Part shown: one piece after another, positions 4,437-64,000 of the stretch
Position numbering within the stretch: position 1 is the first letter of the stretch
How the letters are laid out: each line of letters begins with the position of its first letter
Assembly: GCF_036588685.1 (NCBI RefSeq)
Contig: NC_086385.1
Coordinates: 32,821,216-32,885,215, forward strand
From: Mytilus trossulus
Lineage: Eukaryota
DNA: 64,000 nucleotides
Reading direction: 5' to 3'
Notes under the pieces: generated by a model
What the model was told of the DNA's origin: nothing
Seen by the model: only the letters and a program-made list of their open reading frames with translations
The model's database searches: none
Translations under genes and position numbers: made by a program

Positions 4437-5594
4437 TGGTTTATTCCTTCAGTGCCAACATCCTTTGATCTACCGACAATTTACCTGTGAAATAATGTTG
4501 GCGTTCGAGGAATAGGTGCAAAAAGTTTAATAATGGTATATATCTTTATTCTCATAAAGCCAATGCATTACATCGGTACAGAGATAACAAATACAACAAT
4601 AAATGTTTACAATATGTACAAAACAAGCGAGAGAGGTTACAAAAGTTACAAGCCAGGAGTACACACACAAGTATTTATATTTTTTTTATAAAAGAACAAA
4701 GCTTCTTCAGAACTGGTTTTCTTGTACTTATCTTATCAGAGAATTTAACTGTATTTGTCGTTTTGTAAAATATGCAGTTAAAAACTCTTTCCGTTTTTGA
4801 TGGAAAAAATTGCATTCAAATATAAAATGATATTCGTCACCTATTTGTCGATTGTTACATAGACTGCAAAGGCGGTTTTCTCTGATCACGTTTTGCCATC
4901 TTCCTGTTCCAATCGGCAACTTAGTATTAGTCGTTCGAAATCGACAAAAAACAATAGCGTCTTTGAAGTCCAAAATGTTAAAATATTCTTCGAATTCCAA
5001 GTTTTTCTTAATTTTTTTGTAGTTTATACCTTTTGGTGAATTTTGAATGAGGGAATTCCAGTTCTGAATATATTGATCTAACAATTTCTGCTTTATAATA
5101 GTTTTAAACCATTCTTTATTAAATTGTGTGACTCCCATATGTATGAGAAAAATTGTTCAATCAAAATATTCATATAATTCAAGTATATACTTAACAAAAT
5201 AATATTTAAAATAATATGGAACTAAATAAATCTCTTATATCCTCTTTTAGTTTGAAATAGTTGTATTTCAACTAAATATATATTATATTTATATATATGT
5301 CTTATGTTGGTAAAACTTTTTCATTCCCAAATTTATTTATTTTTTAATAAATAGTAAAAACAAATCATTTTCTTTTTATCTTTATATTCATCATTATTTA
5401 ACCCTTAAATTTTGCTACTTTTCTGATTAAAATGTGATAAAATGTTACAATTTCATCAATTTCATTAATTATTTTTTACAGTTAAATACTTATAAAAACA
5501 CCTATTCTTATTATATAAACATCCATTGAAATATTTTTGTTGGCAGTCAAGGAATAGGTAACATATAAAATGTTGGCATTCGAGGAAGACACCA
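4437..5594. mobile_element. Non-autonomous TIR element with 6-bp TSD, interrupted by a LINE
   Basis: TIR TGGT..TTCCT....TGCCAACA at both ends. TATCGA duplicated at 4431-4436 and 5595-5600. Confidence 0.65.
4541..5140 (-). mobile_element. 5'-truncated LINE 3' end (RTE-X-like ORF2 C-terminus with CCHC motif)
   Basis: ORF 4728-5138 contains LPIGTGRW...RLCSLC...GDEYHFIFEC, followed by a 3'UTR with AATAAA. Confidence 0.85.
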
Positions 5595-6445: not shown

Positions 6446-6787
6446 CTACATATTGGCTTGCATGGCTTCGTAAGAAACAAGTAAAGATTTTAATGTTAAA
6501 ACAACATCCTTGATTATGATGTAATCACATGAATATCTGTATCTTCTGTCGGTAATCGGCGATTGGTTTGACATGATATCACGTGATTGATATTTCTCTA
6601 TGACAGCATCTGATTGGACGATGGCCATTTGAACATGACACAGCACATCATACAGTTTATTTTCAATGTCAATTATATCCGCTGAAAAGGCACCGTGGTC
6701 GTGCACGTTTTCATTGTTTTTAATCTGTTCCAGGAAAACTGCAGCTGTCGACAACTGTGCGTATGATTCCAAGAATGTTACGGTTAC
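6446..6787 (-). CDS. Paralog A exon 4 (helices B-D, stop)
   Basis: tttttttacag|GTA acceptor. VTVTFLESYAQLSTAAVFLEQ...LYDVLCHVQ...SRDIMSN...DYIIIKD...ANM*. About 35% identical by manual alignment to 27213-27569. AATAAA at 6353-6348. Confidence 0.92.
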   Translation of the reverse strand, partial: VTVTFLESYAQLSTAAVFLEQIKNNENVHDHGAFSADIIDIENKLYDVLCHVQMAIVQSDAVIEKYQSRDIMSNQSPITDRRYRYSCDYIIIKDVVLTLKSLLVSYEAMQANM

Positions 6788-7189
6788 CTGTAAAAAAATA
6801 TAAGTTGAATTATAATGCAACATCGTTTTTAACGTTCATTTTGATTGGATAAAGTCAACTATTTTCATGAAAAATGAAAGTACAAATCTGTATTCGGATA
6901 ATGAACTTTACTTTGACCCAAAACAAAATAGTTACTATCGATATCATCCTATTGTCAACTAGTAAACAGTGGCGGATCCAAAAAAATCATAAGTGGGGGC
7001 CCACTGACTGCCTAAGAGGGGGCTCAGTCCAGTCACGCTTCAGTGATTCCCTATATAAGCAACCAAATTTTTTCCCAAAAAGGAGGGGTCCCGGGCACCC
7101 TGCTCCCCCTAAATCCGCCTCTTGTAACTGAAATGAGAAGTCACATATGCAGTTTCAATTGCAAATGAACACAATAAAGCACAACCTTC

Positions 7190-7425
7190 ATTCTCAATAG
7201 ACAATGCAATATAAAGCAAAACTTATTATTTCTCAATAGCCAATGAAACAACACATACATTTTCAAAAGCCAATGACGTAAAACTTATTATTTCTCAAAC
7301 CCAATGTAAAACGTATATTTTTAATAGCCAATGAAATAAAACTTACATTTTCAATAGTCAATGAAACAAAAATCGCATTTTTAATAGCCAATGAAATAAA
7401 ACTTACATTTTTAAACACCAATGAA
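7190..7425 (+). repeat. About 30-bp tandem repeat overlapping the paralog A exon 3 donor
   Basis: aatagccaatgaaataaaacttacattt-like units, about 7 copies. Confidence 0.8.
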
Positions 7426-7520
7426 GCGTTCTTTTCTGGCATGTGTTCTACTTTGAAACCATCCAAATGTACTCGATCTAACCTACGTCTAATTGCTTGA
7501 ACAATGATTCTCTCATTTGC
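7407..7520 (-). CDS. Paralog A exon 3 (AB loop)
   Basis: tttttcttag|GCA ... AAT|GTAAGT, 114 nt, phase 0-0: ANERIIVQAIRRRLDRVHLDGFKVEHMPEKNASLVFKN. Same length and phase as paralog B exon 3. Confidence 0.88.
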
Positions 7521-9363
7521 CTAAGAAAAAGAAGAATAACACAAAATAAAATTTTTATGTTTGTTGTTTACTATTAAAAAGTAAGAAAATTACACACGTG
7601 CTGACTATATTCAGAATTCAGACGAATCGTAAAAAGAGGTAATATGTATACATGGGAAATTACTGCGCATATACCCTACCAAGACATTATATTGAAGTAA
7701 CCACTCTTTAATCGCTATCTTTAATAAAAGGGTTATTAAAACACCTTCAACTAGGTGCTGCTCACATATTACAGTGGGACTAATGCACCCCTTCTGTCAC
7801 CATTACTATAGAACTCTTTCATATATACATCGACCATTAATCTTTTATTGTTTTCTGTGGTTTTGGTGAGAGTGAGTGCTTGGTTTATTTTCAAACACTT
7901 TGCTCGAATCTACATGTCTTGAATTGTAAATATATATTAAATTCATTTACACTATTCCGAAAGATGTTCCAAGCGCATTTAAGAGAAAGGATTCTAACTT
8001 TGGCTAGTATTATATTTTAAGACATTATGTTACAACCTAGTTATATGTTTGCTTTTTGTGAGTTTGTAAATTAGGGGGTGGGGTGGGGCAACTTCCGAAG
8101 CAAAGTTGTCGGCTCTCCGGACATTCCCGAAGTCCTGCGTTGATTGCCGAGTTTATGAGCTTCAGTCCTTGCTTGGAAGTTGGGGTGGGGTAGGGGTTCT
8201 GGATGGGGTTCTTAAAATCAAGAAATGTCGACCAAGTGAACAGAAAAAAGGGGGAAAATATACCATAAAGTAAAAAATATGACTGGCGGAAAAGAATCAA
8301 TAGTTTTACCGTGCTTAAAATTATAAAGAAGAGAGCATAGTGGGAAAGTAAAATGAAATATATAGTGAAATTTCACAAAAAAATACAAAATATACAGAAA
8401 TGGCCACCTTATACAGACACTTTCTACGGCTTTCTTTTTGTATTACAGTTAAATAAGTTTTCTATAACGATGGTCTTATAGCATTTGTAAATTGTGCCAC
8501 TTGCTGGAGGATGAAAAACACTTCATCCTTGAATGTAAAATAAGCTAAGGGATAATCTATTTGAAAATTGTTTACCTTCTGATAATTGTATGTCTCTTAC
8601 CAAAGATAAAAAGAAAAGAAAAGAATAGCTTAACCGATCTATCATGGAACATGTTAAAAATTTTGGTTCCTTTATAAAATAGTAATTAGTCACCACTACT
8701 GGTGTTTGACGACCTTGACTTGCTGTCGGTACATTGGTCAGAAATAAGGGCAGAAGTCTTATCATTTTTTTTCATGTGTTGATTTCTTTTATTTTTTATT
8801 TATTTATTTGCTATATTATATAAAAAAAGAAGATGTGGTATGATTGCCAATAACAGCACTCTCCACAAGAGACCAAAATGAAACAGAAATTAGCAACTAT
8901 ATGTCACCTTACGGCCTTTAACAAGGAGAAAAGCCCATACCGCATATGTTTGTTTTTATTATAAAATATTTGTTTTTGTCACAATCTAATTATGTTAATA
9001 TGACGGTCAAGATATCATTATATAACACGTGATTAACTTATATAAAATAGGAGGAATAAACAACAGTTACAATACGAGAAGGATATCCTTAATAATATTA
9101 AGAAAATTAATAAAAGTAAATAAACAACAATTATTAATCAATTGAATCCCAACTCTTTTATCTTTATTTTCTTTGAACAAGGTTTAAAGATTGAGTTCCC
9201 CTGTTGTCAGACACTTGTTATAAAATATACGATTTCAGATACTTTTTGTAATATATAATTACTAAACACAGTAATATACAAATAATGAGTCGGACTACGT
9301 CTTTTTTTACAGCTTAGCTAACATCTGAATCTTTTTTTTTAAAAGAAAGATATTTGTACATAC

Positions 9364-9542
9364 GTATTTAATTCTCAGGTTGGTTGCTATGTCGTCTGCT
9401 TCTCGGAGTCTGACGATCAGATCAGAGATTATTTCCGGCTGAGGGGGTAGAGGTGGGCGTAACGTAGAAGATCCACATGGATGTCGCCATCTTTCATTTC
9501 CTGCTGGGAAACAGTCGATGTTACTCACCAAGGAAACAATCG
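9364..9542 (-). CDS. Paralog A exon 2 (end of signal peptide, WRHPCG motif, helix A)
   Basis: Acceptor tatttcag|CG and donor TAC|GTATGT (phase 0). Translates AIVSLVSNIDCFPAGNERWRHPCGSSTLRPPLPPQPEIISDLIVRLREADDIATNLRIKY. Homologous to 28904-29052. Confidence 0.9.
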
Positions 9543-9794
9543 CTGAAATATTAATAAGATTTGATGAAATATCTTATAAGAATTAATGTTAATCATGGTG
9601 GAAACAATCGCTGAAATCAAATGATTAATAATAATTGATGATATATAAAGGAAAACAATTGTCGTAAATCATCGAGGAAACAACAGCTGAAGTATTTAAA
9701 TAGAAATGATAAATTATTAAAATTTATCATATACTTAGATTAGTCAATAAAGTTAAATGTATGTACAATCATATGACAATCAATGATAATTGTT

Positions 9795-9975
9795 TTGTAT
9801 TTAAGTCATCGATGATGGTATCGATATAAGTAATCGATCAATATCATTCATCGACGATACTATCGATGATGGTATTATTATCAGCCATCGAAAATGGTAT
9901 CGATGATGGTATGAATATCAGTCATCGAAAATGGTATCGATATAAGTAATCGATAATGGTAACGGTATCAGTTAT
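9795..9975 (+). repeat. Degenerate atcgatgatggtat tandem repeat in paralog A intron 1
   Basis: Repeated atcgat/ggtat units. Confidence 0.75.
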
Positions 9976-10607
9976 CCTTAATACAAAGACAATAAAATAT
10001 CATCATAAAAAAATCATATATTTTAGACATAATAGTTTTGGTAAATGTTCAGAGGTTGTCGTTTGTTTGTTTGGTTCATAAGTGTTTCTCTTTTTTATAA
10101 AGATAAGACCGTTGGTTTTCTTGTTTAAATGGTTTAACACTAGTAATATTTGGGCCCCTTCATAGCTTGCTGTTTGGTGTGAGCCTAGGCTCCGTACTGA
10201 AGACCGTAAATTAACCTATAATGGTTTACTTTTATAAATTGTGACTTGGATGGAGAGTTGTCTCATTGGCACTCATACCACATCTTCCTATATCTATGAA
10301 ATAAATGACACGCTTTATTTTTCCGGGGAACTTCTAAAATCTTGTAACACTCTCTCAATATCACCGCCTTATTTCATGTTGGAATTGACTCGTAGAATGG
10401 GTTGATAAAAAGTATGAAAGAGGCGAAATATAAGTTGTGGTGGTGGGGTGTGGTGTTGTGGGACTCAGTACTACCATAAGGATTTACATATAGGATAAAT
10501 GCATATACTTTTTGCAAGCATCAGTCCAAACGCCTCTTTAAGAACACGTCTGCATGGTAATTGGTTATAGATGAATGCTTTTGAATAATTAATATATAAA
10601 TACATAC

Positions 10608-10641
10608 CCAAAACCATTAAAATGACCGACTGAAGGTACAT
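10608..10641 (-). CDS. Paralog A (Unpaired/IL-6-like helical cytokine), exon 1: signal peptide start MYLQSVILMVL
   Basis: ATG at 10641, 11 mostly hydrophobic codons plus G, then GTATGT donor (phase 1). Joins exon 2 to give MYLQSVILMVLAIVSLVSNIDC/FP. TATATATA lies about 80 nt upstream. Confidence 0.85.
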
Positions 10642-13289: not shown

Positions 13290-14960
13290 ATAGGAAAACA
13301 TACGAATAACAGTACACAAGACACAACATAAAAATAAGGACTACGCAACACAAACCCTACTAAAAACGGGGTGGTCCCAGCTGCTCCGGAAAGGTAAGCA
13401 GATCCTGCTCCACATGTGATACCCGTCGTGCTACAAACCCGGTAAATAGTCTTGTTCGGTAAGTCACATTCGTAAATAGTGAAGTTACGACACAAGGAAC
13501 ATCTCCGATAGCATCTGTGAAACTGATACTTAGTACTCCATAACGGTCAACCAACTCGCTATGGCGTCCGTACAATTTACGAAGAGATGATTTCAAATTT
13601 AACATTCGGAACTCTTGGTTTAAAAACTTCCTTTTAAGTATCAACCCGCTATCAAGGAAACTGGGATAAGAAGGCAAGCCCGAGAATATCGTATCAATTG
13701 TGAGATACATGTATATAATATTCCGTATGCAGGTGTATGCTGGAATGTTGCTATATAGCAATGGAAAGTTCACAATTAGAAAGCTGAAATCATCTGTTTT
13801 ATCGTAAAGTTTTGTTTTCAAGCAACCCTTATTGTCAATTTCTAGATGTAAGTCAAGATAAAGGGCAGGTTTTACTGTATCTGTTGTATCCTTTACCTCT
13901 AGTGTGATGGAATCGATGCGTACAACATAGTCACCCAGTGTTTTATCATTTAGTCAGAGATCATCTATATATCGGAATGTAAGGTTAAAGAATAAAGCTT
14001 ACTTCTTTTCTTTCTTTTTAGAAGTTCATGTTTGAAGTCAGCCTAATAAGAATAAAGAAACAAATCGGCTAGAAGAAGGGCACAGTTGTTTCCCATTGGA
14101 ATGCCGATGGTTTGTTGAAAAAAAAACGTCCTCCAAACATTTTACTAGTATCACGCATTTTGATAATGTCAGTTTTAGAGAATTTTTTGTTTGAATCAGT
14201 GTGAATTTTTACAAAGTAGGATGTATCCCTTCCTAATATAAAAAGAAGATGTTATATGATTGCCAATGAGACAACTCTCCACAAGAGACCGAAATGACAC
14301 AGACATTAACAACTATAGGTCACGATACTTGTATCTACGTTTGTTGTTCTATGTAAGAAACAAAGCAATACCAACTCTTAAGCCTCAGTTTCAGAAACTA
14401 GAGGACTATTGGTAATCTCATTGTTCGTACACCTAAATGAACATAACATTACGTCATTGGTTGCATTTCATTTGTTTAGAACGTTTTTAACCAATCACAA
14501 CGTTGTGATGTACGCTTTTCCATATATTACCCATAGTGCATTATATTTTGAAACGGCGAATTTGTCATTTAGTATGGAATGGGAATACTTGTGTAAAGTG
14601 TGAAATGTAAAAATACTTTTGCAAGATGAAAGAGTCCGGCTTAGATTGTATGTATCTTTGGATTTTTTTAGTATCCACATCTGATTTATACCATCCTCTA
14701 TAATAGGCAGTTTCACAATAAGTTTTAAGCCCGGCTTTGATTTCTGTTAAAATTGATGCTTAGAAAGAGATTTCGTCGAACACTTACATGTAGAAGACTC
14801 AGCAATATAGCTTTGTTTGCAAGGACACTTATGAAATAAAGATACCCAATAAGTGATGGAAGATCCATGCAGTTCATCTTTGGTTGTCGAACTTGAAATT
14901 TTAAAGGCACATAGAACAGTATGTCTGCTATTGCCACGAATACAAATAAAACAAATCATC
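13290..14960 (-). mobile_element. Penelope-like retroelement RT, degenerate, with nested insertions
   Basis: Frameshifted motifs NQMWILK, GIPMGNNCALLLADLFL, FRYIDD, KLYDKTDDFSFLIVNFP, LRKLYGRH. Insertions at about 14235-14325 and 14380-14545. Confidence 0.85.
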
Positions 14961-26479: not shown

Positions 26480-26956
26480 ACAGAACATAACATAGTAAAA
26501 AATATAAACATTTATTACAAAAGTATAAAATTCATACAAAAATGTGAGCATTATATATAAATATATATATACATAAACATTCTTTATCAAATAAACGTTT
26601 TCGATTAATATAATCTACCCTTTGATATATCCATAAACTTGGACGTTTTAAAATAATGAATTGTAAACTCTTTGGTAAACAGGAATAAATGAATTAATTG
26701 AATAAAATATGTCTTTCACAATAATGTAGTCACGTGAATGCAAAAAGCTGTAATTGTCAATTGAATGTATTTGATTGGACATGATATCACGTGATGGAAC
26801 ATTGTCAACAACTCTGCCAAGTTGAGATAAAGCTGCTTGAATTTTACAAAGTACACTATGTATATAATGTTTTATCCATTTTTGTAAATTCTCCAATAAA
26901 CGTATTCTCGTGAGTCTGATGATACATCGTTTCGTTATCAATAACTTGTTCTAGGT
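26480..26956 (-). pseudogene. Tandem duplicate of paralog B terminal exon (5'-truncated, frameshifted) plus 3'UTR
   Basis: Close copy of about 27056-27515. It starts mid-exon at LEQV without the native acceptor and has a 4-nt insertion near 26859-26862 (ctatgtatata versus ctatata). Confidence 0.9.
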
Positions 26957-28261: not shown

Positions 28262-28375
28262 ATTATTGATAGCTGACGTAATGTTATCAGTAAAATTTTC
28301 TGGTTTCAGGCCAGGAAAAGGCCCAGCACCATTCAGTGAAGCAATTATGGCTGAATTGCCTATTCTTTTCTCCGC
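28262..28375 (-). CDS. Paralog B exon 3 (AB loop)
   Basis: atatttag|GCG ... AAT|GTAAGT, 114 nt open: AEKRIGNSAIIASLNGAGPFPGLKPENFTDNITSAINN. Not in the ORF track. Confidence 0.9.
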
Positions 28376-54800: not shown

Positions 54801-57028
54801 TCATTATAGATATTAAGCGACCTCTCATTCCCTATTCCTTTTTAATGCCTTTTTTTCTTCTCTTTTTCTCTTATTTTTGGTTCATTTTTCTGCAATGTTT
54901 GCTTATTGTTCTTTTTACTGTAAACCCCATCTGGACCCACTAATTTACCTTTCATGTATAAAACTTTATATGTGACTACACGTACATACATGTATATACC
55001 TTATTTTTATTTTTTTTGGTATACAAAATTTCTGACGTCAGAATACAATAGCATATTAATTTCACAATCCAATCGAACCACAGTGCATTGTGGTTTACAT
55101 AAGTTTTACTTTCACTTTAGAACACGATGCATTCTGGGTGAATGTTTTGAATTGTTCAGAATGACATGTTTGACTTTGTCGGTCATCTTCTATAATATAT
55201 ATAATAAATAAAATAAAATTGAGAATGGAAATGAGGAATGTGTCAAAGAGACAACAACCCGACAAAAGATAAAAACAACAGCAGAAGGTCACCAACAGGT
55301 CTTCGATGTAGCGAGAAATTCCCGCACCCGGAGGCTTGTACATCTATAGCATACTCTTCAATTTGCATGATACGAATTACAGTACTGGTTTCAACTTTTT
55401 AAAAACCTGTCAAAGTAAGATAAACCCAGTTTTATCTATTATTATGCTCTGTATCTTTGCATTTACTGCACTGATACTTTTAAGTATAAAAATAAAAAGA
55501 TGTTGAATAATAATACTACAATTTCAATTAAATATAGGCCCCCATACGGCCTTCAACAATGATGCTAAAACATTTACTGTATAGAATAGAGAATGGAAAT
55601 GGGGAATGTGTCAAAGAGACTACAACCCAACTACTAAGATAGCAGAAATCAGCACAAAACCACTTTTAAAATGTGTGTCTTCAGCGAGAAAATATTACAC
55701 CCGGAATCATGCTTTATAACTGGTCCATCAACAAAAATGAATAATAATGCATTGGTAATGTACGTCCCACTAAACTCCAAAACATATAAATGAACTAAAA
55801 TTTAAAAACTTGCAAAGGTCAGAGGTTCCTGACTTCGAATAGGCGCAAAAATGCCATGTATAGTCACAAATAAAAGGCCCCGATATGAAAAACGTGAATC
55901 AATATTTATTAAAACGAGAAAAACAAACGACTTAATTTATGACAAAAAAGTTTACCAAAACAAATATGACAGGCATGAACCAACGAAAACAACTTAACTA
56001 CATGATCCTGACTTGGGAGGCACACGCAGAATGTGACAGGGTTAAACAGGTTTGAATGCACACAACACATCGTACTGGAAAATCCTGTCTGCATTTTAAG
56101 TCAAATTTCATCCTAGTCCTCCCCTCCCCCACTCCATGATAACAATCAAGTGGTAGTTCCTTTAAGAACGTATAAAAGGGCTTTGTACGGGTTTAGCACG
56201 ATGCATGAAGTACACACTCCCTACACGTTTTATTTCGACTAGCTGTGGTTACGTATTTATATATCCCGTACAGAGACAAACTGCGACAATATTTACTTAG
56301 GTACAACAGCCGGGTTGTAGGAGATACAACTTTTGTTTACACACCAACCTTTATAAATCAAAAGAAATAGCGTGAAAAAAAGTTTTACGATGTATATGTA
56401 TGGGCGGATCCAGCCATTTTCAAAAGGTGTGTGGGAGTGGAGGAAGGGGAGGGTGGTACCAACCGTATTTCCCCATTTAACTGCATTGGTCGTCCAAAAA
56501 AACCTCCCCTTCCCTGATCCGAAACTGAAATGAAATTGATTTTGAGAAATTCATTATCTCTCGCAAAACGTTTTGGATTGGGTTTTTTTTACAAGTCGGA
56601 AAAATATTGTTTAATTACTTCCGCTTATTAAACTATATATAGTCAACCGGTTCGTCACCCTAATTGGTTTACGAGATTTGGACGAGATTTGGACAGCGGA
56701 GACTACTCTTACTTAAGTTATAATTCGTTAGTATTATTAAATGCAGTGCGGGGACTTTTTTTCTAATTCTAGCAGCGACTAAGCCACATGAGGATTGAAT
56801 TTCACTTAAAAATCACTCTTGTTGGTGTTAAGTGATTTAGATTCACTGCATGTTCACAGGGTGATTGCTGTTTATTGGAAGACATACGTTTACGACCCTG
56901 TCTTTGTTACCTATTCAAAAACACAGAGTGAATCGCCCACAATCACACCAGATTTCAGTTTGAATGTTATATGCATGCTGTTTGTCATGTTCTTGACGTT
57001 TTCGCTAAGAATAAAGCACACAGCAAAT
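51827..57028 (+). repeat. About 2.6-kb tandem segmental duplication (51827-54478 and 54487-57028)
   Basis: Collinear high similarity from gcgatgttgtcat to ttgacgttttcgctaagaataaagcacacagcaaata, with copy-specific repeat insertions. Confidence 0.9.
52470..52825 (-). repeat. Abundant Mytilus-type interspersed repeat family A (aagatgtggtatgattgccaatgagac); other copies 8826-8945, 10050-10295, 12550-12720, 14240-14325, 21885-22055, 22650-22765, 25865-26130
   Basis: Multiple homologous copies in both orientations within the window. Confidence 0.85.
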
Positions 57029-57545
57029 ATAACAAAATTTGAAAATAATTCGATGTTTACAATTTGCTTCGAAATCAGCATCTAGATGTGCATGTTATTG
57101 ACCATTTGTTTCAAATATGATCTTGAATTAAGGTACCTATACCATTTGATTATTATGGAGAAGAGCTATGATGATATTTGAAAAAAAGTTAGGAGTTTGA
57201 GTTACATGTAAAAAAAAATCCAGATGACAATTTATGTAAAAAAAGTAATGATAAAATAATAAAAAGGCAGGACCGAGTAGAGTTAAAAACAAAAAGGAAT
57301 GACATAGGTTACAAAAAAAATGCTGAACACATTATTTTTCATTCGAGCCCCCTCTAAAAAAACAAATAGTAGCACCATAAGTCAGTGGCCTATATTTCTT
57401 TCGCTAAGCGACTCTGGAGATTTGCATCAAAATACTTAAGAATTAAATTTGCACGCGTTTGGCGCGAAAAATATACTCCGACTTAGAAAAAATCATAAAC
57501 CCTTTAAAGTTAAATGGTTGCTCCCTAAACGAAAAATACGCACCG

Positions 57546-57954
57546 TCATGTGTTTTTTTTCTCTCATTGGAATAAAAAGTCAATTGACATATCAATTTCT
57601 TTATAATACAAAATATAATGCATATACATGCAGTTTCATATTAAAGTCACCGTGTAAAACGCAACATGTGGGGTGATGGATATGTTTGATACGAGGTGGC
57701 AGTTTTCCGAAGATGAGAAAAGGCGACTTATGTATAAAACTACAGTTTCCAATTTATTTTTTGAGATTTTTTAGCAACACATATTGGACTGCACGGAAGG
57801 AACCGAACCATAATCTATTCACAGCAAGCAAAACAAACATTTAAAGAGCTCCATTTTTTCAAAAAAACACCTCTCCCTAGTTTTGAGAAATATTCTGAAG
57901 CTTCAGGAAAAAACACTAAATCTTTTTCGGTTTTCCGTAGGATTTACTATCACT
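57546..57954 (-). pseudogene. Possible decayed copy of a paralog C-like terminal exon and 3'UTR
   Basis: 57546-57645 is a clear diverged copy of the paralog C 3'UTR (58386-58478). Upstream are an acceptor-like ttattttaatttccag (57955) and frameshifted QYVLLKNLK/KLETVVLYISRLFSSSENCH, weakly like helix D ...YNCH. Confidence 0.35.
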
Positions 57955-57969
57955 CTGGAAATTAAAATA

Positions 57970-58312
57970 AAATAATTTCTATCATAGAATTGAATCAAAT
58001 ACCAGCTTCTTAGTTAAAACGTATTGATTTAAAAGTATATTTTTCATCGAAAGGTAATGTGTCGCTCATTTGTCAGTCATTCCTTAAACCTAGTTTTTAT
58101 ATGCTTGTAATTCTGTCTATCTAATAAATCCTTGTTTTAATAAATGCCTCACCACCTTGAGCGACACATTACATTTCGATAAAACATGAATTTCACTTTT
58201 AAACCAATACATTTCACTTTTAAACCAATACATTTCACTTTAAACCAATACATTTCAATCTACATGTAAGAAGCTGGCATTTGTTTTAATTCTTTGGTAT
58301 GAAATCATTTTT
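57970..58312. mobile_element. Long-arm foldback/MITE with an internal 22-bp x3 repeat
   Basis: 57970-58070 is the imperfect reverse complement of 58158-58312. tttcacttttaaaccaataca occurs three times. Confidence 0.65.
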
Positions 58313-58499
58313 ATATAAATCAAACGGGAAAATATCGCAATAGTAATAATTGAAATATATGTGTAGTAAGCAAAAAAACACCCCCTCATGCGTTTTCTTT
58401 TTCAATTGAATATTAAGTTAACTGACATATCAATTTCTTTATATAAATAAATACAATAATTATACAGTTTCATATACAAGTGTTGTGTCACGAACCTAT

Positions 58500-58991
58500 C
58501 TATAACAGCGCAGATTTCATTGGATGACAATTATATAATAGCTCGTAATTATATCGCTCTCTATCTAATATTAGTTTAATTTTATACAACTTAATAAAAT
58601 CTTTTTGCCAACGACCACATCTATCTTTAGAACGGTATTTCATTTCGTCGTCTCTTTTATCCTCCACTTCATCTTTACTTTCATCTTCTGTATCAGAACT
58701 TGATGAGCTACTTTCACTTTCATCATCAAAACTATTTCTGGCATGATCGATTTCGTCGGAGATTTTAGTAGTGTAAGTTTCAGCAGAAATGCTTTCATTG
58801 ATAAATTTTCTTCTCGTATTTGATTGGTCGATAGCAATGTCAAGGTCTTGTAGAATGGAATTTACTTTTGGCAGCAGATCGTTAAATCTGGTTTCAACGT
58901 TTAGAAACTCGGTTTCGTTTTTGTAAACATTCATCAGAACACGTTTCGTTCTGGTAAACCGTTTGTGGGATCTTAAAAACCTTACATGAAG
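58500..58991 (-). CDS. Paralog C terminal exon (helices B-D with acidic CD-loop insert)
   Basis: tttttttgcag|CTT acceptor, 163 aa open. KVNSILQDLDIAIDQSN matches KLYDVLCHVQMAIVQSD; QKDFIKL matches SRDYIIV; D/E/S-rich insert between them. Confidence 0.85.
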   Translation of the reverse strand, partial: LHVRFLRSHKRFTRTKRVLMNVYKNETEFLNVETRFNDLLPKVNSILQDLDIAIDQSNTRRKFINESISAETYTTKISDEIDHARNSFDDESESSSSSSDTEDESKDEVEDKRDDEMKYRSKDRCGRWQKDFIKLYKIKLILDRERYNYELLYNCHPMKSALL

Positions 58992-59271
58992 CTGCAAAAA
59001 AATTAAAAACAAAATTAACAGATTCAAACAATCATGATAATTAATTATCTGTGATAATAATCCCATAGATGTAAATACCTTTATCTATGATAATACTGAA
59101 TAAAAATATAAATAAGAGTACTTCTAATAACATTGAAAATAAGAACTAGTATTTGTTTCGATCACTCTGTTTCCTATGAATTTAGATTTTATAAGTTTTG
59201 CATTAAATAGTATTTATTATGTTTTTTACGTTTTTAAATCTTCATTTAGCCGTAATAAATGTTCGTTTCGA

Positions 59272-59315
59272 GCGTCACTGATGAGTCCTAAGTAGACGAA
59301 ACGCGCGGCTGGCGC
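59272..59315 (+). ncRNA. Minimal type I hammerhead ribozyme motif, cleavage triplet mutated
   Basis: Stem I GCGTCA/TGGCGC, core CTGATGA (59278-59284), stem II GTC/GAC, GAAA (59298-59301), palindromic stem III CGCGCG. GUC is replaced by GGC (G59308). Confidence 0.75.
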
Positions 59316-59373
59316 AATTACAATTTTTAATCCTGGTATCTTTGAGGAGTTTGTTTCGAATATGACTTGATAC

Positions 59374-59481
59374 CTTTTTAAGTGCCTTCTGTACCCTGCT
59401 TTCATCAAGTTTCTTTACTCTGCATTTTACAGATGCTGATAGCATATGAATCATCCTACGACTCTGTAGTTTCTGTAAACC
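59374..59481 (-). CDS. Paralog C exon (AB loop)
   Basis: attttctag|GGT ... AAG|GTATCA, 108 nt, phase 0-0, open: GLQKLQSRRMIHMLSASVKCRVKKLDESRVQKALKK. Position and size match exon 3 of A and B. Confidence 0.7.
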
Positions 59482-60146
59482 CTAGAAAATATTTTTATTT
59501 TTTAGAATAATGAACATTTCAAATGAAAAATATTTTTCATACTTATTATGGCAGCAGATAAATAAATAAATAAATGTAAATGTTGAGATAAAACAGTTAA
59601 TCGATTGAATGAAGATTATTAAATATCTATCATTAACAAATGTTTCCCAAATAGGACAAAACTATTTCGTTCGATCTCATTCGCATTTAAATGTATTCTT
59701 TAGTTTTGCTTTGAAATCCTCACCGCGACATCGAGATGAGTAACTGATAACAAATTATTTCATACTCCTTCTGAATTCTTTCAATATCATTGTTGATAGT
59801 TGAACGTCCAGTTGCAAATATTTTATGGATATTCAGGAAAAAGGTATTTTTTCAATGTAGATATTCTGCATGATATATGTTAACCTGGACGGCGGACAAG
59901 AAATTTGGACAGGAATTTATGAAAAAAAACCGTCAAGTTTGATCGTCGCAACGTTAACAGACGTACAACCTAGATACACCAGTATTGTTTACAATGATAA
60001 GTAAAGAGACTATGGCTCTCACCTTACACATGCAGGGCATGTGAATTACATGTTCTTTTGACCGGACATGGCCGCGTATTCATACATGCAATACTGATGT
60101 ACACGTATATATATATTTATAATTATGAACATTTTATTCAACATAC

Positions 60147-60280
60147 AAAATTTCTTTGCACCTCGTCTATGTAATCTGAACCTTCTTGTAGTTTTATTTT
60201 CAATCCTCGAAGGATGTCAATTATTGGTGTCATAGGCGGGAAGTTTTCCATGCTCAGTTTCTGTTTTTGTCAAATATCAC
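60147..60280 (-). CDS. Paralog C exon (helix A); in-frame TGA at 60272-60270, ATG at 60251
   Basis: aatattccag|GT acceptor and TTT|GTATGT donor. Reading frame xDI*QKQKLS-MENFPPMTPIIDILRGLKIKLQEGSDYIDEVQRNF aligns with PPQPEIISDLIVRLREADDIATNLRIKY of paralog A. Confidence 0.75.
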
Positions 60281-60707
60281 CTGGAATATTAAAAATAGTT
60301 TGAAAAATACATCATATTGTTATGCGTTTACTTTTCTACATTGGCTAGAGGTATAGGGGGAGGGTAGAGATCTCACAAACATGTTTAACCCAAGTCAGGA
60401 GCCTGTGGTCTTTGTTTAATAGTCTTGTATTATTTTAATTTCAGTTTCTTGTGTGCGGGAATTTTCGCTACATTGAAGACTTATGGGTGGCCTTCGGTTG
60501 TTGTCTGCTCTATGGTAGGGTGGTTGCCGCTTTGAAACATTCATCATTTCCTTTCTCAATTTTATTTTTAAAAATACATCATACATTAAAGAGGGTCTAG
60601 TTCTTATAAATGGGGGTCGTGGTGGTGGAGGGGTTTAGGTGGTGATAATGGGGGTGTTTTTCATTTCTGCATTCTTTATTTATTTGAGCCATATTTCTTT
60701 CTCTTAA

Positions 60708-61666
60708 TGCGGGGTTCACACATTGCCGATTTTTGCTCCCGTTTGAGATCAGACAGCAATACGACACGAAAAGTGAAAAAGTCGGATTAGTATCCTCAAT
60801 TATCTGGAATGTCCTATCATTGTCTGAACGCATTCGTTTTAGTTCGTAACAGATTCCTACGGACCGGGACGGGTTCGATTAGTTCGGCAAAGCATCCCGA
60901 CAGTTAGGTGCGTCCCGTAACATTCTGGGCAATTCAGCCGATTTTGTCTAGTCGGATTACAATCGTGGCTATGTCGTGACAGATTCTGCTGTATCGGATC
61001 GAATTCCGACCAATGTCTTGTGTATTCTGGACGGTGTCCTGTGGAACGGGAATGATCCGGAGTAATTTTTCATAGCTGTTTTTCTGCCGATTGAGTCCAG
61101 ATTGCATTCAGATCTTGTCGATTGCGAACCGTTTTTTGCCGAAACCGTTCCGAAACAGTCCCGTTATTAATACGAAATTCGTCAATACAATACGACTGAG
61201 ACCAGACAAAGCCGTTTGCAATGCGATAGAGCGGACCGTGATAGGATTACATTCCGACAGTACCTGATCATCCCGAATATGCCGACAGTTTTCGAACGGA
61301 TAACTTCCGTCAGCGTCGGTTCACTGTCTGGTCATTGTCTGATCTCAGTCGGATTACATTCGGTAGAGTCGTGACGCAGTCGTGACAGACTCGGTCGACT
61401 TTTACCTGGCGAAAAATACGAATCGGATTAGAAGCGGATTCAGAACGGGATTATCGGGACTAATTCGTTTAGAAACTGTTGAATATCGGTGCTTCCTGAA
61501 AACTATCTGATTGTTGTCGTGATCAAATTATTTTTTTTATAAATTTTAATTTAAGTTTGAATTTCCATTCACGATTCACAAGATCTTGATCAGACTTTTA
61601 ATAAATTTTAATCGGGTAGGTCCTGTCAAGAACGGTAGTAAAAATCGTGAATGTGTGACCCCAGCT
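60708..61666. mobile_element. PIF/Harbinger-type non-autonomous element
   Basis: TIRs (T/A)GC(G/T)GGG(T/G)TCACACATT...CGATTTTT, TAA/TTA flanks, GC-richer interior. Confidence 0.75.
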
Positions 61667-62986
61667 TTACATTTTGTATACTGTTATCTATTCTATACAT
61701 TTAAGAATCAATTTAATATCTTTTGTTTTTTTCGGCCTATTTTTTCTATCTTTTTTTATCATTATTCTGAAGTATGATTAATTCAGACCCGAATTTACAT
61801 TTATCGAAGACTCACGTACAGTTTTAGAATAAGAATATATATATATATACTGTTAATGCGCAAGAAAATGCGTCGTCAGCCAAAGCAACGACATACAACA
61901 GTATCTCGGCTGTCGTAACTGATTTAAAAAAAATAATTACAAAAAATCTTGACATCTGTGAAGTGGAACATTTCGGGAAGAGTTTATTTTGAAAGTCAAA
62001 TGACATCCGAAATTTTTTCCTCATAAAAGTTTGAAATCGATAAATTTTAAACTAAAAAAGGGTGATATGCAGCATCAAAAGTGAACTATTTGCTACTGGA
62101 CACACGAGCTGGTCATGAAACTGATTGAACCGGCCATAATTATCGATACACAATCGCCAATCGCTTTAGCTGTCATCATCATTTTTAAAAAAGACTATAA
62201 ATGAAAATCTAATTAATTATCTTCCTTTCATGATAGATTGAACCAAAGTTATCTAATTGTTATCACAGAGAGGGACTAGCAAGCAATTTTTAATTGAAGC
62301 GTATTTAACGTTAAAACAATTTTTCCACTATAAACAAATGTTACTTTATACAAATACATGTATAAGGACTTTGTTACCTGAATCTACACATTTTATGAAT
62401 TTTTATTACAATAGATTAATATTATGCTATATCATACAGGTAGATATTAATTTAAATACAGAGAAACATTTATTTCCATATTAGAAGATAATAAATTTCA
62501 TAATGGAAGTTGATAATTTCCATATTGGAGGTTAATAATTTCTATATTGTAGGTATTAGTTTCCATATAAGAAGATAGTCATTTTTATATAGGGAGTTTA
62601 ATTTCGTCGATAATATTTTTGATAGTACACGGAAGATAACACCACTTGAAATAGCATCCTGCGACAGGAAGTTATTCAAGTCTCAATACTTTTGTTTAAG
62701 TGTAATTTTAAAATGAAAATCAGCTGTATTTTTAGAAAATCGAAAGCTACGTGCAAATATTTATTTCAATGTGAAGGTTTTCTATACTACTACTGCAAAC
62801 AAACAAAAAAAGAACACAAAAAAACCTCCTTCCTTAAAAAAATACATAAAAATACATTTTTTAGTAAGATTCTCCGTCATAAATTCGTCCGGATTTAAAG
62901 CATTTTTAATCTATCTACATGGCTACAAAAGATGCAATCATAATGTAATCTTTGTTTGCTTGCAGTAACTTATTATTGTCTGTGCT

Positions 62987-63612
62987 ATCCTGTACGAACT
63001 GTGACGCCCGTATATGACACGGAAACCAGGCGTAAAAATCATACTTTAACCTGGCGGCATTGCAGTGTTTACAAAATGCATATCCAGGCGTCAACCAGGC
63101 GTCAACCAGGCGTAAATTAGGCGTAACTAAGGCGTAAACCAGGCGTAAAATTAGGCGTAATATTTAAATTCACAATTTTCATTAATTTATTTGATTCAGT
63201 ATTTCCAATTTCAGATTCTTCCAAAAAGCACAAAACAAGCAAATTATCCCTGAATATATGTAGCTGACATGTGTCCAACTCTAGCAAACTAAAATCAAAG
63301 AGGCAAATTTTGAAAAAAAATCCCATGATCCTTTGCACAAAGCATTATGGGTATTTTTATTTACGCCATACCAGCAGTTTTACGCCCGTAAGAAAATTTA
63401 CGCCTTGCTTATTTCTATTTACGCCCGTAAGAAAACTTACGCCTTGCTTATTTCAATTTACGCCAGGTTAAGTTCTTTTTTCTACGCCCGTCAGGACTAC
63501 AAATTTACGTTTCCTGCTCCCTTACGCTTGGATCTAGACACGTAACTACCACTTACGCCTGGTTTACTCCTTATTTCCAGGCGTAATACGCCTTATAATT
63601 TCGTACGGGATA
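62987..63612. mobile_element. MITE with TCC(C/T)GTACGAA TIRs and inverted GGCGTAA/TTACGCC microrepeats
   Basis: tatcctgtacgaa ... ttcgtacgggata, with many ggcgtaaa copies on the left and tttacgcc copies on the right. Confidence 0.7.
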
Positions 63613-64000
63613 CAACATTTAATAACGATAATAAGAATAAGAACATTACAAACTCTCTCAACGAAAATACATCTTGCTATTCTATACTGAATCATCATAC
63701 TATAATGCAATTAATATACTATGCAGAACGTGTTGTACTGTGAAGTTACTGTGGCCACCTAGATTCATACTATACAAGTATCGGACAAATATATGACTTT
63801 AGAACCTCACCGTAATATTTACCGCCTTAGAAATGCCCGTGCAGTACTAACCAAAGATTTATAATCATATTACTATCAGACTATTTCTAAAACCTTATTC
63901 CACAGTTACTAAAGAGAGAAATATATTAGAGAAAATACAAATATAACGGAATAGAAATGTACTAACATGTATATGTCTATATCTCATCATAAATATGATC

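What the first reader, a model, noticed from the sequence alone, without database searches (positions are those of the whole stretch)
60147..60280. Paralog C: in-frame TGA where a Cys is expected - leaderless cytokine, null allele or recoding?
Seen: after a good acceptor the phase-1 frame reads xDI-TGA-QKQKLS-M. The ATG at 60251 has a strong context (AGCATGG) and opens a 234-aa ORF without a signal peptide. The remaining Cys count is odd (VKC, RCG, YNC) and the helix-C Cys of A/B is replaced by Gln. Inference, three options. (1) A CNTF-like leaderless protein with a non-coding upstream exon. (2) A TGY>TGA nonsense change or assembly error: a Cys here would give four Cys, allowing N-terminus/C-terminus and AB-loop/helix-D pairs as in EPO and GH. 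(3) Selenocysteine or readthrough, although I saw no convincing SECIS.
Basis: partly seen in the sequence, partly recalled or inferred. Interest (0 to 1): 0.7.

Follow-up and report, generated by a model that had tools for sequence, protein, structure and literature searches.

The report
Leaderless IL-6-fold cytokine clade in mussels
The puzzling stop codon lies in the untranslated leader of an intact, spliced mussel gene whose protein has no signal peptide, is predicted to fold like the IL-6/CNTF cytokines, and would likely stay inside cells until damage releases it.

Summary
The TGA (60272-60270, minus strand) is real but ordinary: it lies in the 29-nt leader of exon 2. Transcript-type contigs from three studies join this exon to a short exon 8.3 kb upstream that encodes no signal peptide. 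The TGA is unchanged in the two contigs whose differences are all listed; no Cys allele or SECIS was found; and low-depth contigs carry frame-shifting indels between TGA and ATG. The 234-aa ORF is under constraint (pooled pN/pS about 0.27, 0 stops in 29 variants). Orthologs have 3, 2 or 0 Cys, so the four-Cys argument fails. What remains is interesting. C is homologous to secreted neighbours A/B (hhalign 96%), and its AlphaFold model (pLDDT 76) best matches long-chain class I cytokines (IL-27p28, OSM, CNTF, CLCF1; Z 13.7-14.7). C, a second gene D 2.35 Mb away and a third relative all start at the same place. They lack the WxxPCG motif and the helix-C Cys, have gained a basic AB/B region and an acidic CD loop, and form one side of a 100/100 branch. 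Damage-triggered release, as for CNTF, is inferred and untested.

The parts
60281..64000 (-). Intron 1 (8328 nt in all; runs past the window's end). Exon 1 lies OUTSIDE the window, 4609 nt beyond base 64000 (L003:4609 upward; 5' end not mapped). It is non-coding for the main ORF, holds a weak-context upstream ATG (L003:4645, T at -3) and ends in donor GTAAGT; a TATA-like run lies about 70 nt upstream of the donor.
   Evidence: Loose ends of X6, X7 and X20 behind 60280 match L003:4609-4630; sequence; frames; length
60252..60280 (-). 29-nt non-coding leader of exon 2. Indels at 60264-60266 in two low-depth X20 contigs (net -1 and +4 nt).
60270..60272 (-). The TGA: a 5' leader stop. In this allele it ends a 15-codon uORF that starts in exon 1, 18 nt before the main ATG.
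60147..60251 (-). Exon 2 coding part (35 aa: start ATG, Pro-rich start, predicted helix A). An alternative donor drops 60147-60161 (5 aa; 229-aa isoform).
   Evidence: joints skipping 665 and 680 nt; P0006, P0007
59374..59481 (-). Exon 3 (36 aa, predicted AB loop; part of a region of net charge +17, residues 36-95)
58500..58991 (-). Exon 4 coding part (163 aa + TAG: predicted helices B, C, D)
58635..58778 (-). Acidic Asp/Glu/Ser-rich CD loop (residues 143-190), predicted disordered; absent from secreted paralogs
58060..58499 (-). 3' UTR (end approximate; ATTAAA at 58290 and 58141); no SECIS found
   Evidence: X6 contig covers to 58301 with 241 more letters
6446..10641 (-). Secreted-type paralog A (4 exons, intron phases 1-0-0, signal-type N-terminus, WxxPCG, helix-C Cys); equals P0015
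27213..31853 (-). Secreted-type paralog B (4 exons, phases 1-0-0)

Best explanation
The TGA is a stop in the non-coding leader of an intact, spliced gene whose 234-aa protein has no signal peptide, is predicted to fold as a long-chain class I helical cytokine, and would likely be held in the cell and released on damage or by unconventional export. Shown: exon structure, upstream exon, TGA kept in other samples, open and constrained ORF, homology to secreted A/B, and a shared start point in C, D and P0024. Predicted: the fold. Inferred: (i) ribosomes scan past the weak upstream ATG (T at -3), or reinitiate after the 15-codon uORF, and start at the strong ATG 60251; (ii) an ancestor of C and D lost the signal peptide together with the N-terminal WxxPCG Cys and its likely helix-C partner, as expected on moving to the reducing cytosol, and gained a basic AB/B region and an acidic CD loop; (iii) release on injury and signalling through a class I cytokine receptor and JAK-STAT, as for CNTF. 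Odds: about 0.9 for 'intact leaderless gene, TGA is leader'; about 0.85 for the fold; about 0.45 for damage-released ligand.
For: Spliced joints across introns 2 and 3 in 4 of 4 runs laid, from 4 studies. The same upstream exon in 3 of 3 RNA-type runs laid, located. TGA unchanged in X6 and X2, whose only other letter is at 60174. Hydropathy of the first 35 aa (best 9-residue mean): 0.86-1.88 for 7 C-clade proteins and 0.92 for the uORF frame read through, against 2.57-3.66 for 3 A/B proteins. 14 synonymous, 15 missense and 0 nonsense variants; pN/pS 0.27. hhalign of the C clade vs A/B: probability 96.3, E 1.5e-9, 123 columns. Model pLDDT 76, helices 10-40, 72-100, 106-143, 183-225. The top 12 VIA rows are all long-chain class I cytokines, e.g. 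IL-27p28 Z 14.7 (rmsd 4.2, 164 aligned) and CNTF Z 13.7 (rmsd 3.1, 136 aligned); best non-cytokine Z 8.1. ESM features place A beside IL6/LIF/Hormone_1 clusters at 0.93-0.96. D's Met aligns with C's, and its leader is 22 nt, a different phase. Tree support 100/100. CNTF lacks a signal peptide and becomes available after cell damage or by an unknown route (PMC11039321, passage).
Against: No protein, localisation, ribosome or receptor data. X6, X7 and X8 are only guessed to be RNA, and all runs are contigs, so no start site was mapped. X7 and X20 contigs have unlisted other letters, so their TGA is not fully accounted for; the X20 indels rest on contigs of depth 2.9 and 4.2. In this allele the upstream ATG is in the main frame, and exon 1 gives 12 codons + 1 nt, the same length and phase as B's signal exon, which would fit a decayed signal exon. 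Foldseek found no match at E<=0.001, although its top 7 rows are prolactin, GH and G-CSF. The tool warns that Z under about 13 can be generic for helical bundles. The model was built on an alignment that included secreted paralogs. No Pfam cytokine family reached its cut-off. ESM features gave no usable hit for C.
Confidence: 0.8

Rival explanations
1. Same intact leaderless gene, but the protein works inside the cell (nuclear or chromatin-bound factor, or intracellular decoy) and is no longer a receptor ligand.
For: Net +17 over residues 36-95 and an acidic Ser-rich disordered loop; the basic region is shared by D and P0024 (+10, +9) but not A and B (+2, -1); very long stem branch (1.85 changes per column).
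Against: All four helices are kept and align over the full length with cytokines. IL-27p28, a working ligand, also has an acidic disordered C-D loop (PMC9597551, passages).
Confidence: 0.35
2. Null allele or assembly error: TGY>TGA in a formerly secreted gene.
For: The upstream ATG is in frame, and exon 1 has the length and phase of B's signal exon. Raw reads of the assembly itself could not be inspected.
Against: TGA kept in X6 (organism A) and X2 (organism B). Database proteins of four Mytilus species start at the same Met. Orthologs hold 0-3 Cys. A read-through frame would still lack a hydrophobic core (0.92). The helix-C Cys, present in all 14 secreted-type rows that cover that column, is absent in all 8 C-clade rows. 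The ORF is constrained.
Confidence: 0.03
3. Recoding: the TGA is read as selenocysteine or read through, adding 22 residues from the upstream ATG.
For: The uORF is in frame with the main ORF in this allele. TGA followed by C is a leaky context (recalled, from no call).
Against: No SECIS family among 5 weak Rfam hits at E<=10 over 56500-60400; 0 SECIS-like patterns in 57500-58499 by my own scan, which had no positive control. The frame is lost in X20 contigs and, by inference, in X6, where exon 1 differs by what looks like a 10-nt deletion (vs 101). No conserved Cys column lies here. D's leader has another phase.
Confidence: 0.02
4. A rarer isoform supplies a signal peptide through another first exon and an acceptor downstream of the TGA, so C can be both secreted and leaderless.
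For: AG dinucleotides lie between the TGA and the ATG. M. edulis has two accessions per isoform, which suggests 5' variants. Contigs drop rare forms.
Against: All 3 RNA-type runs that reach the exon edge use acceptor 60280 and the same exon 1. No database protein of the clade that I measured has a hydrophobic N-terminus (7 of 7).
Confidence: 0.06

Closest known systems
CNTF (and cardiotrophin-1): leaderless vertebrate IL-6-family cytokines
   Same: Predicted long-chain four-helix fold (CNTF Z 13.7, rmsd 3.1, 136 aligned); no signal peptide (CNTF: PMC11039321 passage; CT-1 recalled); no conserved Cys in the C clade.
   Different: 6% identity, and orthology was not tested. C's nearest relatives are secreted mussel paralogs, so the loss looks independent. 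C has a 48-residue acidic CD loop and a strongly basic AB/B region. Receptor unknown.
IL-27 p28
   Same: Best structural match (Z 14.7, rmsd 4.2, 164 aligned; tied within 1 Z with OSM, CNTF and CLCF1); acidic disordered stretch between helices C and D (PMC9597551 passages).
   Different: p28 has a signal peptide and pairs with EBI3 (signal peptide recalled); C's tract is Asp/Glu/Ser, not poly-Glu; 9% identity, probably convergent.
Secreted WxxPCG helical cytokine-like proteins of mussels (A, B and six partly read genes on contig C4)
   Same: Collinear homology; same exon layout, with intron phases 0-0 at matching places after exon 2; exons 2-3 of the C4 81.6-Mb genes resemble C and D closely.
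   Different: C, D and P0024 lack the signal peptide, the WxxPCG motif and the helix-C Cys, and have the acidic insert.
Drosophila Unpaired and insect 'invertebrate helical cytokine'
   Same: Invertebrate helical JAK-STAT ligands or candidates (Upd: PMC13203501 passage; the insect protein is seen only as a phrase count in a search listing).
   Different: Secreted (recalled). Only 1 of 28 alignment members touched Pfam Unpaired, at E 0.2, which is no evidence of membership.

Membership tests
Long-chain class I helical cytokines (fold class) | Four long helices with long AB and CD connections, matching solved members over the whole domain | tested here: met
   Predicted model, pLDDT 76, helices mostly about 90; top 12 of 48,161 chains are class I long-chain cytokines, Z 10.8-14.7, model range about 4-234. 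A prediction, not a solved structure.
Long-chain class I helical cytokines (fold class) | Binds a class I cytokine receptor and activates JAK-STAT | not testable with these tools
   No binding data; receptor searches in G000 were uninformative because their controls were silent.
Named vertebrate families (IL6, LIF_OSM, CNTF, Hormone_1, IL11 in Pfam) | Sequence match over the family's curated cut-off | tested here: not met
   0 of 28 alignment members and 0 of 6 pieces matched such a family at E<=0.5 or E<=1; so it is not filed under any named vertebrate family.
CNTF/cardiotrophin-1 type | No signal peptide | tested here: met
   Hydropathy and first-exon mapping; no dedicated signal-peptide predictor was available.
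CNTF/cardiotrophin-1 type | Orthology to CNTF/CT-1 and use of CNTFR/LIFR/gp130 | not tested
   No tree with vertebrate sequences was built; identity 6%.
CNTF/cardiotrophin-1 type | Cytosolic storage and release on damage | not testable with these tools
   Inference by analogy.
Selenoprotein (Sec recoding) | SECIS in the 3' UTR | tested here: not met
   (my own pattern scan lacked a positive control)
Selenoprotein (Sec recoding) | TGA aligned to Sec/Cys in homologs within a conserved frame | tested here: not met
   The leader does not align to a conserved Cys column and its frame varies.
Pseudogene / null allele | Disrupted or unconstrained ORF, or a lesion private to one haplotype | tested here: not met
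   ORF open in four species' proteins; pN/pS 0.27; TGA shared.

The most novel reading that the evidence does not exclude
Mussels evolved, independently of vertebrates, an old multi-gene clade of leaderless IL-6/LIF-fold 'alarmin' cytokines (C, D and relatives) out of their secreted WxxPCG cytokines. The clade is stored in cells, tethered by a basic face, released on injury and signals through the molluscan gp130/Domeless-like receptor. It would be an invertebrate counterpart of CNTF and a candidate for the ligand said to be missing from the molluscan IL6R-JAK-STAT module.
Probability: 0.4. Interest if true: 0.75.

Novelty: new variant of a known kind. Interest (0 to 1): 0.5.

Why it matters
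The TGA itself needs no exotic explanation. The gene matters because a 2026 survey found IL6-family ligands only in vertebrates although a receptor, JAK and STAT occur in molluscs (PMC13203501; abstract and passages read). This locus gives named, testable candidates: secreted A/B and leaderless C/D, with C predicted to have the long-chain cytokine fold. If C is released on damage, leaderless IL-6-fold signalling arose twice, and mussel wound and immune biology gains a concrete ligand to assay.

Tried and rejected
AlphaFold of A from 6 rows gave pLDDT 37; its Foldseek search was meaningless. Profile searches of A/B alignments against PDB sequences gave nothing relevant. Pfam gave nothing over cut-off. 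ESM Atlas for C gave no feature hit and only generic helical rows from a pLDDT-0.45 model. Receptor domains PF06328 and PF09240 were not found in G000, but the controls were silent, so there is no verdict. A scan of 60281-94000 for signal-type exons found 1 candidate (shuffle mean 0.78; phase 2) but missed A's exon 1 as positive control, so it is discarded. DNA likeness of C exon 1 to A or B exon 1 was not above shuffles (367 and 773 of 2000 reached the score), but A vs B was itself only borderline (63 of 2000), so a relic origin of the uORF is neither shown nor excluded. One search's A/B exon 2-3 boundaries were off by one and were corrected. In the tree the label 'secreted' was not verified for F1-F3 (no N-terminus read) or for the second half of P0028, and rests on exon-2 motifs for E1-E3; there is no outgroup, so the direction of loss is inferred. 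Earlier-findings look-ups returned nothing. Papers PMC9756803, PMC4929537, PMC7072680 and PMC8706492 (passages only) added nothing on this family.

Full report
OBSERVATION. On the minus strand an acceptor precedes 60280. The phase-1 frame holds a TGA at 60272-60270, six codons before an ATG at 60251 with A at -3 and G at +4. Exons 60251-60147, 59481-59374 and 58991-58500 encode 234 aa, identical to P0005, which its source names XP_063412121.1 of Mytilus trossulus. That record may come from this same assembly, so it is not independent. A stop in nine non-coding codons is expected: 45% of 27-nt windows in intron 1 have one.

TRANSCRIPT. Of 22 runs listed I laid five. In one search, contigs of X6, X7, X8 and X20 (4 studies; X20 on record as RNA, the others guessed) all join 58991 to 59374 across a GT-AG intron, and all join exon 3 to exon 2, at either of two donors 15 nt apart. 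The two donors match the 234- and 229-aa M. edulis isoforms. In one search, X6, X7 and X20 leave the window's sequence at 60280 with the same loose letters. These match L003:4609-4630, an exon ending in GTAAGT, 8328 nt upstream and outside the window. Contigs cannot show a transcription start, so the 5' end of this exon is unmapped.

THE TGA. In one search the X6 contig (60161-60280) and the DNA contig X2 of another organism code (60120-60312) each have exactly one other letter, at 60174, so both keep the TGA. No change is listed at 60270-60272 for X7 or X20, but their contigs have unlisted differences. Two X20 contigs carry indels at 60264-60266, between TGA and ATG, of net -1 and +4 nt (depth 2.9 and 4.2, under the tool's caution level of 5). 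In the window's allele exon 1 has an ATG 66 nt before the main ATG, in the same frame, with T at -3; it opens a 15-codon uORF that ends at this very TGA. The 30 printed letters of X6's loose end agree with the genome for 26 nt and then match it again after a 10-nt gap. I read this as a deletion that would move the upstream ATG to another frame (inference, one contig). Against a simple story: exon 1 from that ATG is 12 codons + 1 nt, the same as B's signal exon, so a decayed signal exon is conceivable; DNA likeness gave no support, but the test was weak. Even if the TGA were Cys, Sec or read through, the added 22 residues have no hydrophobic core (0.92 against 2.57-3.66 for A/B). Rfam over 56500-60400 gave five weak hits, none a SECIS, and my pattern scan of 57500-58499 found none (no positive control).

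THE ORF IS ALIVE AND NOT DISULFIDE-BASED. Database proteins from M. edulis, M. californianus and M. coruscus (81-94% identical) start at the same Met (these are annotations). They hold 2, 0 and 0 Cys against 3 here, so the proposed four-Cys pairing is not conserved. The 29 coding variants listed are 14 synonymous, 15 missense and 0 nonsense, over about 140 and 562 sites: pN/pS 0.27 (species pooled, uncorrected, and hid 10 rows).

A LEADERLESS CLADE. The own genome holds a second C-like gene, D, 2.35 Mb away. Its exon 2 has Met exactly where C does (49% identity over 35 aa), behind a 22-nt leader of a different phase. A profile search of 1.84 billion representatives returned only three proteins: the C ortholog P0004, the D ortholog P0023 and an unnamed P0024. 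P0024 also begins at the Pro-rich start of helix A. One D-cluster member, P0027, has 7 extra non-hydrophobic residues. The C-clade profile matches the A/B profile with probability 96.3, E 1.5e-9. Exon junctions fall at matching columns, and the intron phases are 1-0-0 in A, B and, counted from the uORF, C. Six further genes on contig C4 belong to the family. In alignment A5 all 14 secreted-type rows that cover helix C have its Cys, and the 9 with an N-terminal exon read have WxxPCG; all 8 C-clade rows have neither. I infer that these two Cys form a disulfide that was lost as a pair. C, D and P0024 also share a basic region after helix A (+17, +10, +9 against +2 and -1 in A, B) and an acidic CD insert. 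In a 15-row maximum-likelihood tree the six leaderless rows are one side of a branch with support 100/100 and length 1.85. The tree has no outgroup and some 'secreted' labels are unverified.

FOLD. With a 25-row alignment AlphaFold2 gave pLDDT 76, pTM 0.68, long helices at 10-40, 72-100, 106-143 and 183-225, and a disordered loop at 143-190. Against 48,161 chains the top 12 are long-chain class I cytokines: IL-27p28 Z 14.7 (rmsd 4.2, 164 aligned), OSM 14.1 (3.4, 157), CNTF 13.7 (3.1, 136), CLCF1 13.7 (3.6, 152), then placental lactogen, LIF, IL-11, GH and IL-6 among others. The best non-cytokine is 8.1. The first four are tied, so no closest family can be named. Foldseek reached no E<=0.001 but ranked prolactin, GH and G-CSF first. 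Separately, language-model features put A next to a mostly molluscan cluster (IL6 on 11% of members) and Hormone_1, LIF and IL-11 clusters at 0.93-0.96. Pfam gave no cytokine family over cut-off.

MECHANISM. Shown: gene structure, leader stop, open constrained ORF, clade. Predicted: fold. [quoted passage not shown] The main rival is a purely intracellular role (about 0.35). IL-27p28 shows that an acidic C-D loop is compatible with a ligand (PMC9597551, passages).

NOVELTY. The proteins are named only 'uncharacterized', 'unnamed' or 'hypothetical' in their sources. Six literature searches aimed at this family (listings only, open-access library, supplements not seen) showed no title describing molluscan leaderless helical cytokines; subscription papers are not covered. 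PMC13203501 (abstract and passages) reports IL6-family ligands only in vertebrates while IL6R-like receptor, JAK and STAT co-occur in molluscs. Insect helical cytokines are known (Upd; others recalled), so the kind is known and the leaderless mussel clade is a new variant of it.

VERDICT. Observation confirmed. The TGA is an ordinary leader stop; null allele about 0.03, recoding about 0.02. The gene is an intact member of a leaderless cytokine-fold clade. Interest 0.5.

Noticed in passing
window 59272-59315 (+), intron 3 of gene C: Rfam Hammerhead_1 match (25.1 bits, below the gathering score of 34; E 0.0057) inside a repeat with summed contig depth in the thousands in all four RNA-type runs; possibly a retrozyme or Penelope-type element. 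An 81-nt fold was not better than shuffles (z 0.48).
   Followed up: partly
window 60705-61669: Element bounded by 39-nt inverted repeats (82% complementary) in intron 1 of C; looks like a non-autonomous DNA transposon.
   Followed up: partly
window 28262-28375 (-): Exon 3 (AB loop) of paralog B is far more diverged from the M. edulis protein P0017 (61% in a gapped alignment) than exons 1-2 (56 of 62) and exon 4 (106 of 118); perhaps fast change at a receptor-contact loop, or exon exchange.
   Followed up: partly
window 26648-26950 (-): Partial tandem copy of B's last exon plus 3' UTR, apparently frameshifted at its start.
   Followed up: no
G000:C13 about 35.237-35.240 Mb (L002, L006, L007): Gene D, a second leaderless member with the same exon layout; its first exon was not found.
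   Followed up: partly
G000:C4 81.59-81.64 Mb and 78.33-78.36 Mb (L012-L021): Two further clusters of three family genes each; exons 2-3 of the 81.6-Mb genes resemble C and D.
   Followed up: partly
P0014, P0020, P0028: Database proteins of 395-431 aa that fuse two neighbouring cytokine genes; probably annotation artefacts. The second half of P0028 is a paralog not seen in my searches of this window.
   Followed up: no
window 63004-63584: Cluster of short inverted and direct repeats rich in a GGCGTAA-type unit in intron 1.
   Followed up: no
window 4728-5156 (-) and 13360-13953 (-): Open frames that look like retroelement fragments (likeness judged from recall, not searched).
   Followed up: no
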